A stretch of 63,302 nucleotides of DNA, filler included, from Octopus bimaculoides (lineage: Eukaryota), in NCBI RefSeq assembly GCF_001194135.2. It is 10 parts of 9 records of this genome, joined end to end, with 100 filler letters (N's around TTAATTAATTAA, not from the genome) between each part and the next. Parts side by side here need not be neighbours in the genome. Positions count along the whole stretch, not along the records: positions 1 to 28,636 come from NC_068994.1; positions 28,737 to 31,604 come from NC_069002.1; positions 31,705 to 39,618 come from NC_068988.1; positions 39,719 to 43,351 come from NC_069005.1; positions 43,452 to 50,593 come from NW_026306984.1; positions 50,694 to 52,071 come from NC_068982.1; positions 52,172 to 53,716 come from NW_026324556.1; positions 53,817 to 56,013 come from NW_026358685.1; 2 more parts are not named here. The stretch is one strand, 5' to 3'. Below are positions 1-54,369 of the stretch, piece by piece. The position numbers were made by a program, and so were the translations under genes. Under the pieces are notes generated by a model. That model was not told where the DNA came from and did no database searches. It saw only the letters and a list, made by a program, of their open reading frames with translations. Numbering within the stretch: the first letter of the stretch is position 1; every line of letters starts with the position of its first letter.

Positions 1-360
1 ACAAAATGAGACCATCGATCATGTTGTCTCCATGTGCAGTCTGCTTGCGCCTACAGAGTATCTCAACAGGCATGATAGAGCTGCACAATATATTCACTGG
101 GTAATATGCAAAAACCTGGACTTGCCCCATGATAAAAACTGGTGGGAACACAAACCATCCCCAGTACTTGAAAATGATCACATTGCACTCCTCTGGAACT
201 TCACCATTCAAACTGACAGAAAGATAGACGCAAATAGGCCAGACATCATACTGAAAGACTTCAGACAAAAATCATGCCTCCTCATTGATATGACTGTCCC
301 AATCGATATAAACGTATCTGTCAAGATAAACGTATCTGTCAAGATAAACGTATCTGTCAA
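1..360 (+). mobile_element. R4/Dong-like non-LTR retrotransposon fragment (CCHC knuckle and restriction-like endonuclease region), 3'-truncated
   Basis: Translation ETIDHVVSMCSLLAPTEYLNRHDRAAQYIHW...IQTDRKIDANRPDIILKD...IDMTVP matches the RLE-clade H-x3-C, RHD and PD..D motifs. It breaks off at an 18-bp triplication. Confidence 0.85.
308..360 (+). repeat. 18-bp tandem triplication (ATAAACGTATCTGTCAAG x3) at the truncation point
   Basis: Units at 308-325, 326-343 and 344-360 (last one lacks the final G); in frame (INVSVK x3). Confidence 0.95.
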
Positions 361-399
361 TGTTTCGGCTGATATACCCTCCAGCCTTCATCAGGTGCC
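355..399 (-). ncRNA. Minimal type I hammerhead ribozyme motif (Penelope-type), stem I broken at the junction
   Basis: Minus strand reads GGCAC-CUGAUGA-A-GGCUG-(10 nt)-CAGCC-GAA-ACAU-U. The core and 5-bp stem II are intact; ACAU is interpreted as CpG-decayed palindromic ACGU. Confidence 0.7.
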
Positions 400-474
400 T
401 TGGGGATATTTTGAACCTGGGTTCTCATTCCTAAGGTATTTTTCAATGTTATTATTATTTTTATTATTCAGGTC

Positions 475-556
475 ACTGCCTGGAATCAAACTTGGAATCT
501 TGAGGTTAAGAGCGCGGGCTACTAACCCCAAGATTCTGAGTTCGATTCCAGGCAGT
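475..556. repeat. Fold-back of a tRNA-derived SINE head: 34-bp arms, 14-nt loop
   Basis: 475-508 is the reverse complement of 523-556 with 4 mismatches. The right part carries a tRNA-like B box (GAGTTCGATTC). Confidence 0.85.
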
Positions 557-1263
557 AGAATCAAATGTAAATAATGTACATAATTCCTCATCTCTTAAGT
601 ATAGAACTAGAATATTATATACATTTTGCCAATACATTACCTCTCTATACATTCTAGCAAGCTATTCCCCACTCAATACATTCTCCCAATACATCACCTA
701 CTCTATAGAGACAACAAGAATGATTTGTAAGTTTGACATAAGGTAGGATACATCAATTTAAATCAATCTCATTTTATTAATTCCTAAAGAATAAAAGACA
801 AAGTCAACATGACAGGATTTAAACTTGGTGTCTTCCTTGACATGAGTTTGAGTAAGACCAACAAAGGAATACTACCCTCACATCTAAAATCCATGATTGA
901 TCTTGGTAGAGTTTGAGCTCAGAACAGTCACTTTATAGCACAACCAAATTAGCCTAGTATTTAACTGGTACTTATTGTATCACTACTAAGAGAGACAAGA
1001 GATGAACAGCATGAATACACAGGCATGTAACTAAATCTTGGAAGGCAAATTAATCTTTCATTCAAAGATGAACCAGTCCCTCCTCCTCAGAACATCATCC
1101 CATTCTGGAATTTCTTCTCTGCCCGTGTTTAACTTATTACTATTCAAGAAGAACATTAACCACATTGAATCTTACTAATCTGAGGTATTCCAAAGGCTAT
1201 GGGCAAAGCATCTCTCTCCAGACCAAAGCAATAAAACAATTAAAACAAAACAAGTTAGGCTTC

Positions 1264-1700
1264 TATATTTGTTTTGCAAGATTTTTGATGTGAAATCATG
1301 TGTTGAAACAAATATTGTAGTATTTGGGGATGGTCATATTGCCAGTTTAGCCAATAAAAACACACGCACTGTATATTTGGTGTTAATTTGCTTCAGCTTT
1401 ATACTACATTACATTACATTAATCATATTTCGGCCAGAGTTCTTTCGTCTTATATGTGTGTCCCTCCTTGCTAACGATCAGCCATTTGGCTGATCGTTAG
1501 CAAGGAGGGACACACATATAAGAAAGAAGAAAGCAAAGGACCACTGATGAGGTCACAGAAGTGTGACGAAAGAACTCTGGCCGAAATATGATTAATGTAA
1601 TGTAATGAAATATAAAGCTGAAGTAAATTAACACCAAATATACAGTGTGTGTGTTTTTATTGGCTAAAGTGGCAATATGACCATCCTCAAATACAACAAT
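1264..1700. mobile_element. Palindromic insertion, probably a Penelope-like pseudo-LTR fold-back, flanked by a 12-bp direct repeat
   Basis: Inner arms 1448-1484/1487-1523 (37 bp, perfect); outer arms 1313-1449/1565-1701 (137 bp, few mismatches); AAGTTAGGCTTC at 1252-1263 and 1701-1712. Confidence 0.8.
1538..1582 (+). ncRNA. Minimal type I hammerhead ribozyme motif
   Basis: GGACCA-CUGAUGA-G-GUCAC-AGAAGU-GUGAC-GAA-AGAACU-C-UGGCC: intact core, 5-bp stem II, near-palindromic stem III, stem I with one bulge. Confidence 0.7.
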
Positions 1701-2159
1701 AAGTTAGGCTTCATTATACTAATATCAACAACAATAACATGAACAACAATAGCAACTGGTGCAATGACAACAAGCATGATGTAGTATTAACCAGACATAA
1801 CAACAGCAACTGAAGCATGCAAAAATATTGATTTCCAAAGGATCAACCTCCAGAAAGTAGAAGTCAGAAGTTTTTGAAATCATCCATCAGTAGCAGAAGT
1901 TAGTGAAATATGAAATGAGAGTACCTGAGGATGCACAGGCATGGTCAAAAGTGAATTCACAATTAAGTAGGGTTTTAATTATATTGTGCAACATAAATTA
2001 TACACACACATGTATAGCCTCTTAATTTGACAGACAGAGCACAGAAGGGTTAGTGAGAGAGACGGAGAGAGAGACGGAGAGAGAGACAGCAGGTACTCTG
2101 TGGTGTAATAACTGATGCTATGTGATGTGTAAGTATGCATGCACACACACACACGTGTA

Positions 2160-51734: not shown

Positions 51735-51925
51735 GCACAAAGCCTGAAATTCCGGGAGAGGGGACTAATCGATTACATCGATCCCAGTGCTGCACTGGTG
51801 CTTAATTCATCAACCCTGAAAAGATGAAAGATAAAGTCGACCTCGACGGATTTTGAACTAAGAACGAAATATCGCTAAGCATTTCGCCCGGCATGCTAAC
51901 GATTCTGCCATCTCACTGTCTTAAT
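51735..51925 (-). mobile_element. Family A SINE
   Basis: Reverse complement of the family A body. Confidence 0.75.
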
Positions 51926-51944
51926 AATAATAATAATAATTAAC

Positions 51945-52071
51945 AATAAAGTCTGTCCCATCAAAAGAAGAAGTGCAAGAATTTTGGAATAAAATCTGGG
52001 CAGAAGATAAAACACACAATGAAAAGGCCCCTTGGATTGATAGAATATCTACAGACCTAGACTCCTTAGAG
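51945..52071 (+). mobile_element. R4/Dong-like LINE fragment (region upstream of RT), cut by a spacer
   Basis: PSKEEVQEFWNKIWAEDKTHNEKAPWI resembles the R4-clade P..E...FW..IW....HN..A.W motif. Confidence 0.65.
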
Positions 52072-52317
52072 NNNNNNNNNNNNNNNNNNNNNNNNNNNNN
52101 NNNNNNNNNNNNNNNTTAATTAATTAANNNNNNNNNNNNNNNNNNNNNNNNNNNNNNNNNNNNNNNNNNNNTAAAAAAAAAAAAGGAAAAGAAAAAATCC
52201 TTGTCATGTGACTAGTATTTGACTCAGAAATTTTTACTGTGTAATAATATTATTACATAGTATATTACGTATACCATTCAAATTAGTTGGACTGATGTTC
52301 TCATTTTCACTGTTGTT

Positions 52318-52363
52318 TTCACTATGTTTCAGCTGTTGTATGCTCCAGCCTTCTTTAGGTGTC
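52318..52363 (-). ncRNA. Degenerate minimal hammerhead motif, same subfamily as 355-399, within a short inverted repeat
   Basis: Minus: GACAC-CUAAAGA-A-GGCUG-(10 nt)-CAGCU-GAA-ACAU-A-GUGA; core G5 is mutated; 52312-52331 is inverted at 52383-52402. Confidence 0.5.
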
Positions 52364-54333
52364 TTGTGTTGAACTCAGTTGTTGAAACATAGTGACAGCA
52401 ACAATCAAGATGGAGACACAAGATGTAAGTAGTGTACATAATATTAATTCCTCATATCACAAATATCGAATTGTATTTCAGGGTAGTCAGTGTTTAACTG
52501 TCAACCCCAGTAATTTACTATGAAGTACAATAGGAACAGGTTTTACAGACAACCATGTAAACTGGGCCAAGTAGAGGGTCACTACAATGGCTGCAAATGC
52601 AATTTGAACTTAGAAACATGTGATCGGTAGTGCAACACTATCATTACATCTGTTCTGCTTCACATATAGGGAAGGTGTTGTCAGAATCAGTCAACAAACA
52701 TTACTTTCATAATTAGCCTATTTATTGAAATAAACAAAATACTTAACAATGTTTGATGTTGATTTGTAGATATTGTTTGAAGATGTAACTGTAATGGAAT
52801 ATAACATGGCCATTATTGAAATCAATGCTACTATGTCAGTGTTTATAGATATGTATTTTTATATAATACATGCCTTTTGTGAACAATAGCCTTGTTAGCT
52901 TTACAGGGATCCATTGATCCAACTGGTCAACCAATTATATTTGATAACTTCTTTTTTCTTTACAGTGGAAATGAATATTTGCCAGTTTCCCAAGGTTTCA
53001 GGAGAATATTTTCGTTTGATGTTACTATTTGTGAGGAATTGTTCCTTTCAAACATGAAATGTAGACACATAAATATTTTGGTTAGTTATTTTAAATTAAG
53101 GCAATGAAGTGGCAGCATAGTTAGTGTGTTGAATAGAATACCTTGCAGAACCATATTTAATAGCATAAATGATGCACAGGTATATTAGATTCACTCCAAT
53201 TTCAGCATCATATATTCAGTAAAAAAAGTTTTAGCATATTAAAATTTATGGGAGGCCAAACTTCACATATAGGACCCAGGGTGATTTTTTTTGGCACATA
53301 TTTGGGGAATAAAAGTGCATCTTACATGCCATCAAATACAGTATTTGTTCCAACACTTTTTGCTCTGAGTTCAATTCCTGCCTAGGTCAACTTTACCTTC
53401 CATCATTTTGATGGTGATAAAAAAAATACCAATCTGGGATGCTCAATTGGTAGAACTTATAGCACTGGTTCTCGACGTTTATAATATTGAGGCCAGATCC
53501 AAACCTGGATGTTTTTAGTGGTCCACACTGAAAAAAGTAAAATTTATTATATTTATAGAGGGAAGATTGTTGAGGGCTACCAGAAGGATGCTTGAGGGCT
53601 GCATGCTGTCCTGGGAGCCACAATTGAGAACCGCTGATTTAGAAGGTCAGGCAAAATGCTTTGCAGCATTTATTCTATCACTTTGCGTTCTGATAACAAC
53701 ACCTATAGTGACCCTTNNNNNNNNNNNNNNNNNNNNNNNNNNNNNNNNNNNNNNNNNNNNTTAATTAATTAANNNNNNNNNNNNNNNNNNNNNNNNNNNN
53801 NNNNNNNNNNNNNNNNGCGCATGTGTTTGTAGATCTGTGTGTGCGTATGTGTATTTATGTGTGTCTGTGTGTGCATATATATCAACGGATGAAATTTCTT
53901 TCCGGTTTCCCAGATTCAATCATAAATCCTCCTGCCAGACTGGAGGCGGTTTCACCGCAGGATCTAATCCCTTTTGCCAGCTGACAGGAGCAACGTGGAA
54001 GTAATGTTTTCGGTTTTAATCGGGCCTTCTTTGCTATGGAGCATTGATAAGTTACCACAATGGACGTCTGTGGCCCTGACAAGGGACTTACGTGTGTTGT
54101 TTTGGTTAACTATAACTTACTTTCAGATGTTTTTTACACTAGACGCTTAGGGAATATTGTATATTACGCCTAAAAACCACGGTCGATCCCCGAACTGTCA
54201 ATACGCATAGCTTCTGTATGTGAGTTAGATTTTCTCTGTTAACCTGGGTCTGCTTCTGATTCATATTTNNNNNNNNNNGGTGGTGTAAACAACAAATAGA
54301 TGTATTAGTTTAACGCTCGGGAATAGAGAAAGT

Positions 54334-54369
54334 CTTTGACGTTTCGAGCCTATGCTCTTCAACTGAAAG
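54334..54369 (-). ncRNA. Degenerate minimal hammerhead motif (third subfamily)
   Basis: Minus: CUUU-CAGUUGA-A-GAGC-AUAG-GCUC-GAA-ACGU-C-AAAG. Stems I and II and the ACGU palindrome are intact; the core has 2 mismatches to CUGANGA. Confidence 0.45.

What the first reader, a model, noticed from the sequence alone, without database searches (positions are those of the whole stretch)
355..54369. Dispersed set of Penelope-type minimal hammerhead ribozymes, three subfamilies, all with one extra nucleotide after the core
Seen: five motifs (355-399 -, 1538-1582 +, 34381-34425 -, 52318-52363 -, 54334-54369 -) follow stem I / CUGANGA / one extra nt / 4-5 bp stem II / GAA / 4-6 nt palindrome-like stem III (ACGU or AGAUCU type) / H17 / stem I'. 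Established: Penelope-like retroelements carry minimal type I hammerheads whose palindromic stem III allows dimeric self-cleavage. Inference: at least three octopus PLE families seeded these motifs, and the extra nucleotide between A9 and stem II is a shared family trait. The 355 copy lies on the EXOC4 sense strand inside an intron.
Basis: partly seen in the sequence, partly recalled or inferred. Interest (0 to 1): 0.72.

Follow-up and report, generated by a model that had tools for sequence, protein, structure and literature searches.

The report
Penelope ends, one mutated hammerhead family
The five motifs are mostly worn copies of the ends of three very abundant Penelope-like jumping genes in an octopus genome; their 'extra' base is already part of the published pattern, but one family of about 8,000 copies carries a U where the self-cutting core normally has an A, which would likely weaken cutting and yet did not stop the family from spreading.

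Summary
Real but mostly known. All five motifs are present, on four unlinked stretches of the pack. Only the 1538 copy passes a strict descriptor. The others are truncated, CpG-decayed or core-mutated. They belong to three families with 4,895, 2,034 and 12,121 exact genomic matches (reversed controls 0, 0, 1). Each family is the 3' pseudo-LTR of a protein-coding Penelope-like element (20/30, 21/30 and 7/30 ORF loci). EXOC4 intron placement holds.

Two features were missed. (1) Family C has CUGU-N-GA: A6 is replaced by U in 28/30 sampled copies and 7,844 genomic matches. The clade is monophyletic, includes near-identical young copies, and keeps both stems. I found no report of this, but one key paper was unreadable. 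(2) Family A's pseudo-LTR starts with a tRNA-like head, where 25/30 short copies begin. The scan noted this head before on other DNA. Cleavage is untested, and RNA-seq from a related species showed no read-end pile-up.

The parts
358..399 (-). Family A hammerhead: core 394-388, extra A 387, stem II intact, stem III decayed to ACAU, element cut 1-3 nt after position 17; predicted inactive. Sense strand of an EXOC4 intron.
358..508 (-). Sense arm of the family A pseudo-LTR (3' part of tRNA-like head, AAT repeats, body, hammerhead)
   Evidence: (85% to an ORF-bearing copy)
504..608 (+). Inverted arm of the same insertion: tRNA-like head (504-556) and element tail (560-608), hammerhead part deleted
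1538..1582 (+). Family B1 hammerhead, the only intact copy: core 1544-1550, extra G 1551, stem II 1552-1567, AGAACU 1571-1576, C17 1577. Antisense to EXOC4.
1487..1701 (+). Sense arm of family B1 pseudo-LTR
1265..1463 (-). Inverted, 5'-truncated arm of the B1 insertion (holds only the 3' half of the hammerhead)
34278..34454 (-). Family B2 pseudo-LTR fragment; hammerhead 34381-34425 with CUGAAGA-U, G-U at the base of stem II, AGAUUU, bulged stem I
52262..52470 (-). Two-armed older family A sister (A2); hammerhead 52318-52363 with G5>A. Relatives mostly keep CUGANGA.
54279..54435 (-). Family C pseudo-LTR fragment (cut by an N gap); hammerhead-like motif 54334-54369 with the family's U6 plus a private U4>A
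58924..58977 (-). Missed sixth motif: 5' half of a B2 hammerhead (C3>U, ends after GAAA)
12774..12920 (-). EXOC4 exon (aa 329-377) bounding the intron that holds the 355 and 1538 copies

Best explanation
The five motifs are decayed, 5'-truncated 3' ends (pseudo-LTRs) of three protein-coding Penelope-like retrotransposon families, likely pasted by each element's own reverse transcriptase and GIY-YIG endonuclease, and the hammerhead in each end is predicted to cut only slowly, with a partner copy or protein help, in the master element and not in these lone copies. Shown: family A follows the stop codon of a Penelope/Poseidon-type ORF. Families B and C follow ORFs with a CX4CxxC linker before GIY-YIG (Neptune/Nematis type; clade read from motifs, no tree). 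Two-armed insertions (355, 1538, 52318) match the known inverted-copy layout. Family C fixed A6>U once and kept amplifying. Inferred: U6 lowers cleavage strongly, so in family C the fold is likely kept mainly as a shape that the element's protein binds, with little or no cutting needed for transposition (about 60%; still usefully cleaving about 25%; neutral relic about 15%). Inferred: family A's tRNA-like head is likely a Pol III promoter that makes short RNAs copied as SINE-like units (about 60%).
For: Counts and reversed controls. Motif in sense downstream of a PLE ORF: A 20/30, B1 21/30 with two copies about 2 kb apart flanking an ORF in L112/L145, C 7/30, all seven U6. ORF identity: Atlas first hits 0.97 and 0.95 to HTH_animal/GIY-YIG/RVT_1 clusters; Pfam GIY-YIG E=0.003 for C, under cut-off. 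U6 in 28/30 copies sampled without fixing the box, while N7 takes all four bases and H17 is A, C or U but never G. 7,844 U6 against 882 A6 matches. The 22 U6 tips form one clade on a tree of flanks only. Stem I outer pair is C-G in 24/30 of the family C sample and G-C (10/20) or A-U (5/20) in A6 sisters. Four young U6 copies are 96-99% identical. Mutations in the CUGA region gave low activity in a full mutagenesis (PMC9901934, passages), and natural A6C gave <0.1/min (PMC3088659, passages). In the Anolis PLE the hammerhead needs protein and cleavage is not needed for insertion in vitro (PMC11167929, passages). Head: colinear with this genome's tRNA-Arg(UCU), score 40, 0 of 2,000 shuffles reach it; 25/30 copies lose homology to the ORF end within 8 nt of the head; 979 against 3,473 matches for 20-mers just before and inside the head.
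Against: No cleavage was measured. U6 having 0 changes in its clade is not significant alone: 36 of 147 flank columns also have 0, and support for the clade is 0.74. The patterns fixed stem II and GAAACGU, so their conservation is circular. 23 of 30 family C endonuclease loci show no motif within 1.5 kb (most have assembly gaps), and no RT core was recovered for C. Pfam did not name the family A or B ORFs. The head was not called by Rfam (whose range clipped it) or ARAGORN (0 of 12 loci; only an implausible fold at relaxed score). It also aligns above all shuffles to Thr and Ala tRNAs, so the parent tRNA is open. Family C copies also seem to start at a preferred point without a tRNA head (by eye), so a sharp 5' end does not prove Pol III. 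The hammerhead fold, monomer or dimer, is not the minimum-energy fold for most copies tested. RNA-seq of a related species showed both strands equally and no end pile-up on family A.
Confidence: 0.88

Rival explanations
1. Family C is a natural, still functional hammerhead variant: U6 is tolerated in the dimer or with the element's protein, and cleavage is under selection.
For: Across several U6 subfamilies only the positions free in hammerheads change (N7 5 changes, H17 4, loop II), while C3, U4, G5, U6, G8 and A9 total 4 changes over 6 columns against a flank mean of 1.9 per column. G17 is absent in 30/30. A natural A6C variant retains low activity.
Against: CUGA mutants have low activity. 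An A6 sister subfamily has G17 in 3/20 copies, so inactive-looking motifs can amplify. Cleavage was dispensable for the Anolis PLE in vitro. The conservation statistics are weak.
Confidence: 0.25
2. U6 is a neutral founder mutation in a dead ribozyme that hitch-hiked with a successful element; nothing about the fold is selected.
For: Single origin; 36 of 147 flank columns are equally invariant; Naiad PLEs spread without canonical hammerheads (PMC8557442, passages).
Against: U6 copies diverge to 65% pairwise identity (mean 78%) yet keep stem I pairs 1-3 in 28-30 of 30, positions the pattern did not fix.
Confidence: 0.15
3. The motifs belong to non-coding retrozymes or free-standing SINEs rather than to PLE termini.
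For: Most copies are short and ORF-less. Family A occurs as a unit-length head-to-tail copy inserted in another element (L248).
Against: All three families follow PLE ORFs at a consistent place. Copies are 5'-truncated or two-armed, not tandem monomers. No clean target-site duplication at L248. Short family A copies may still behave like SINEs, but as offspring of the PLE.
Confidence: 0.07
4. The 355 copy is a domesticated intronic ribozyme acting on EXOC4 pre-mRNA.
For: Sense strand, inside an intron.
Against: Stem I is reduced to 1 bp and stem III has lost its palindrome. It is one of thousands of copies. The intact 1538 copy is antisense.
Confidence: 0.02

Closest known systems
Minimal type I hammerheads in pLTRs of metazoan PLEs (Cervera and de la Pena 2014, PMC4209133; read main text parts 1-2 of 4, supplement file 2 part 2 of 3; supplement file 1 not searchable)
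   Same: CUGANGA + one extra base, G10.1-C11.1, GAAAC-GU-H, short stem I, thousands of single truncated copies, few inside full PLEs; molluscs Lottia and Crassostrea already listed
   Different: Family C has U6, which none of the listed rows that I saw has (the reported core covariation is U3-A8). Family B1 stem III is AGAACU with a central A.A mismatch in the dimer. Family A has a tRNA-like head. No octopus row found.
PAc, Poseidon PLE of Anolis (Frangieh et al. 2024, PMC11167929; passages)
   Same: Poseidon-type ORF with hammerhead-bearing pLTR; no RNA-seq ends at the cleavage site
   Different: No tRNA mentioned in its main text (0 occurrences); canonical core
Natural core variants of hammerheads (Perreault et al. 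2011, PMC3088659; passages)
   Same: A change at position 6 (A6C, phage Bcep176) with low activity
   Different: Single sequence with C, not a family of thousands with U; 'A6U' 0 occurrences in main text
Schistosoma Sm-alpha/Sj-alpha SINE-like elements (seen only as passages in the review PMC6765202)
   Same: Promoter followed by a hammerhead in a short repeat
   Different: Canonical hammerhead, not described there as the end of a protein-coding PLE; here the head sits about 40 nt after a PLE stop codon
PLE-associated short-stem-III hammerheads (Lunse, Weinberg, Breaker; PMC5785218; not held, title only)
   Same: By title: PLE-linked variants that cleave as dimers
   Different: Unknown; it may already hold these families or A6U

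Membership tests
PLE minimal hammerhead (min-HHR) | CUGANGA box | tested here: met
   Families A (A6 30/30, C3 27/30) and B; window copies 355, 1538, 34381
PLE minimal hammerhead (min-HHR) | CUGANGA box in family C | tested here: not met
   U6 in 28/30; 7,844 U6 against 882 A6 matches. Works-like claim only.
PLE minimal hammerhead (min-HHR) | Unpaired base between 9 and 10.1; G10.1-C11.1 | tested here: met
   All five window copies have the extra base; G-C in three, G-U in 34381 and 52318. Family patterns assumed it.
PLE minimal hammerhead (min-HHR) | Self-complementary stem III | tested here: inconclusive
   ACGU in A and C, AGAUUU (with wobbles) in B2; AGAACU in B1 is imperfect; ACAU in two window copies
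PLE minimal hammerhead (min-HHR) | Self-cleavage as dimer | not testable with these tools
   No read-end pile-up; folding does not favour the active form
EN+ Penelope-like element | RT/thumb followed by C-terminal GIY-YIG | tested here: met
   A; B; C: thumb, linker and endonuclease pieces only
EN+ Penelope-like element | Hammerhead in a pLTR downstream of the ORF; tandem or inverted copies | tested here: met
   20/30, 21/30, 7/30; inverted arms
EN+ Penelope-like element | Clade by RT phylogeny | not tested
   Clades inferred from presence or absence of the CX2-5CxxC linker as described in PMC8557442
tRNA-derived SINE | tRNA-related head with A and B boxes | tested here: inconclusive
   Colinear tRNA alignment beats 2,000 shuffles, box motifs by eye from recalled consensus; Rfam and ARAGORN do not call it
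tRNA-derived SINE | Non-autonomous lineage separate from its helper | tested here: not met
   The same sequence is the 3' end of a coding element in 20/30 RT loci
tRNA-derived SINE | Pol III transcription | not testable with these tools
   Only the 5' boundary is seen
Non-LTR retrozyme | Non-coding tandem monomers with canonical type I hammerhead | tested here: not met
   Copies are PLE ends, mostly single or inverted

The most novel reading that the evidence does not exclude
A Neptune-type Penelope lineage in octopus replaced the conserved A6 of its hammerhead by U, then diversified into several subfamilies and about 10,000 copies while keeping the fold. It is either a natural A6U ribozyme rescued by dimerisation or by the element's protein, or a catalytically silent fold kept for protein binding. 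With its A6 sister families in the same genome it is a ready natural pair to test whether PLE hammerheads need to cut at all. The probability is for: unreported, and the fold under selection despite U6.
Probability: 0.5. Interest if true: 0.62.

Novelty: new variant of a known kind. Interest (0 to 1): 0.42.

Why it matters
What hammerheads do in Penelope-like elements is described as unclear (PMC8557442), and in the one reconstituted system cleavage was dispensable in vitro (PMC11167929). A successful, recently active family with a core change expected to cripple catalysis, beside canonical sisters, makes that question directly testable. It also means CUGANGA descriptors miss about 9,600 motifs in this genome. 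The tRNA-like head in a Poseidon pLTR suggests a way for one coding element to spawn SINE-like offspring. The finding as first written (extra nucleotide, five motifs) is ordinary.

Tried and rejected
Rfam on the whole window: 96 matches at E<=5, none to a hammerhead family and none reaching its gathering score, mostly microsatellite noise. Pfam did not recognise the family A and B ORFs. Sec8_C search of the genome rang nowhere, controls included, and PDB search of the exon was uninformative; EXOC4 was settled. ARAGORN and Rfam did not call the head. Thirty Pfam GIY-YIG loci held no family A parent; the one hit was an insertion into another PLE. My first reading of family A as a free SINE was dropped. 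Run search: no RNA holder listed on record. Reads of three RNA runs of a related species gave no end pile-up and no strand bias; no read data were obtained for family C. Minimum-energy folding does not favour the active fold. Not-in-print searches: hammerhead+A6U+core (one twister paper, listing only), hammerhead+CUGUUGA (two unrelated by title), hammerhead+Penelope+octopus, Penelope+SINE+Neptune+hammerhead+mobilized (none), SINE+hammerhead+tRNA+Penelope+non-autonomous, Penelope-like+pLTR+tRNA+Pol III+SINE, octopus SINE names, and supplements of PMC4209133 and PMC8557442 (line breaks can hide strings). Lunse et al. and Nelson and Uhlenbeck were not held; Repbase, Dfam and SINEBase were not available, so these families may already have names.
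Full report
Observation. The window is a pack of ten stretches. The motifs at 355 and 1538 share the first stretch (G000:C14); the other three lie on three separate stretches, so they are not a cluster. All five exist and have one unpaired base after A9. A strict descriptor (CUGANGA, stem II of 4 bp or more, GAA-A..U-H, stem I of 3 bp or more) finds only 1538, against 0 in 12 shuffles. Relaxing stem I adds 355 and 34381 (3 against 0.17). 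One core mismatch adds 52318 (2 against 0.75), and two are needed for 54334 (11 against 3.7). Rfam gave no hammerhead match. The host is an octopus: the exon at 13446-13601 is 98% identical to Octopus vulgaris EXOC4. Positions 355 and 1538 lie in the intron between aa 377 and 376-401 of that minus-strand gene, so 355 is sense and 1538 antisense.

Families. Exact patterns gave 4,895 matches for family A (355, with 52318 as an older sister), 2,034 for B (1538, 34381) and 12,121 for C (54334); reversed controls gave 0, 0 and 1. Each sample of 30 loci is the first 30 on contig C1, with a few overlapping pairs. Among positions not fixed by the pattern, 7 of 30 family A copies carry the full majority motif and 15 of 30 family B copies the B1 motif. 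Relatives of 52318 mostly keep CUGANGA (5 of 7 motifs found in the 10 related loci), so its G5>A is decay.

Link to Penelope-like elements. B: an endonuclease-like ORF beside one copy was searched in the genome. 21 of the 30 best loci have the B1 motif in sense, nearly all about 550 nt downstream, and one has two copies 2 kb apart around an ORF. Pfam was silent; the Atlas placed the ORF with HTH_animal/GIY-YIG/RVT_1 clusters at 0.95. C: walking 5' reached a GIY-YIG remnant. Of its 30 best loci, 7 have the C motif in sense within 1.5 kb, all with U6; most others end in assembly gaps. Thumb, CX4CxxC linker and endonuclease are visible (Pfam GIY-YIG E=0.003, below cut-off), and copies often end in (TA)n. 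A: an earlier scan note suggested a coding parent. An RT fragment from locus L203 retrieved 30 loci, 20 of which have family A, head included, about 930 nt after the YVDD motif and about 40 nt after the stop codon. The ORF lacks the linker zinc finger and matches HTH_animal/GIY-YIG clusters at 0.97. Inverted 5'-truncated arms, as at 355, 1538 and 52318, are the known PLE layout (PMC8557442).

The extra nucleotide is known. [quoted passage not shown] They report no monomer cleavage and low dimer cleavage.

Family C core. With the box left free, 28 of 30 copies have U at position 6 (one A, one C); C3 and U4 are 30/30, G5 and G8 28/30, A9 29/30, and N7 takes all four bases. Genome-wide there are 7,844 U6 against 882 A6 matches, the latter mostly sister subfamilies with other loops. 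A looser U6 pattern gives 9,587 against 18. On a tree of flanks only (40 rows; copies with gaps and duplicates dropped) the 22 U6 tips, including the window copy, form one clade (support 0.74). Within it U6 has 0 changes, N7 5 and H17 4, against a flank mean of 1.9; but 36 of 147 flank columns also have 0. Stem I pairs 1-3 hold in 28-30 of 30, and the outer pair differs between clades: C-G against G-C or A-U. Four copies are 96-99% identical, so U6 elements were active recently. Published data point to low activity for changes here. The Anolis PLE hammerhead needs protein and its cleavage is dispensable for insertion in vitro. An A6 sister group has G17 in 3 of 20 copies. I therefore favour a weakened or silent fold kept for protein recognition, with a functional variant and a neutral relic as rivals. 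None of this was measured. No read data were obtained for family C.

Family A head. The first 70 nt align colinearly with this genome's tRNA-Arg(UCU) (score 40; 0 of 2,000 shuffles), and also above all shuffles with Thr and Ala tRNAs; 7 tRNAs were tried. Rfam and ARAGORN do not call it. Of 30 heads, 25 lose homology to the ORF end within 8 nt (26 by the ungapped script; L300 continues after a one-base insertion). Exact 20-mers fall from 3,473 inside the head to 979 just before it. This fits Pol III starts that yield SINE-like copies. A reverse-transcription stop would look the same, and family C also seems to have a preferred start. RNA-seq of a related species covers family A on both strands equally, with sharp element bounds and no pile-up at the cleavage site, which fits read-through from host transcripts.

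Mechanism. Shown: three PLE families, their termini, copy numbers, decay of four of five window copies, and the U6 clade. From established knowledge: insertion by the element's RT and endonuclease from the 3' end gives truncated and inverted ends. Inferred: slow dimer- or protein-assisted cleavage in masters of A and B; reduced cleavage in C; Pol III use in A. Folding does not favour the active form in most copies tested.

Novelty. The finding as written is a new member of a known kind. The family-wide A6U core lifts it to a new variant: I did not find it, or in earlier scan notes. Lunse et al. could not be read, supplement file 1 of PMC4209133 was not searchable, and repeat databases were not available. 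The tRNA head was noted before by this scan on other DNA, and other notes mention different core variants in octopus PLEs, which I did not test. Papers seen: PMC4209133 (main text parts 1-2 of 4, part of one supplement), PMC8557442 (passages, supplement search), PMC11167929, PMC3088659, PMC9901934, PMC6765202 and PMC4758252 (passages); all others as search listings only. Hammerhead numbering, the NUH rule and Pol III box consensus are recalled.

Noticed in passing
window 58924-58977 (-) and 58781-58918 (-): Missed 5' half of a B2 hammerhead directly abutting a GIY-YIG fragment (Pfam E=0.0019, under cut-off) of another PLE.
   Followed up: partly
window 48223-49612 (+): Relic of another Penelope-like element with a GIY-YIG domain; the family profiles and descriptor found no hammerhead beside it.
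   Followed up: partly
window 305-360: The 355 copy ends within 1-3 nt of its predicted cleavage site, at a TTG microhomology with a triplicated 18-nt unit of the flank. None of the 30 sampled family A copies ends there, so likely a deletion.
   Followed up: partly
L135, L136, L138: An A6 sister subfamily of family C has G at position 17 in 3 of 20 sampled copies, a second inactive-looking variant that amplified.
   Followed up: no
L248:sense 1020-1310: Unit-length family A copy (head to tail) inserted in another PLE's ORF, with a short replaced stretch and no clean target-site duplication.
   Followed up: partly
window 2-571 (+): Open frame resembling the C-terminal end of a non-LTR retrotransposon (recalled resemblance; no Pfam hit), into which the family A copy is inserted.
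   Followed up: no
window 10572-11042 (-), 31784-32716 (+): Mariner/Tc1-type transposase relics (Transposase_1 E=1e-19; DDE_3 E=3e-5).
   Followed up: no
window 52260-52500: This stretch occurs twice at 100% identity in G000 (C29699 and C1), probably an assembly duplicate.
   Followed up: no
families B1 and B2, stem I: Stem I carries a one-base bulge, on the 5' strand in B1 and apparently on the 3' strand in B2.
   Followed up: no
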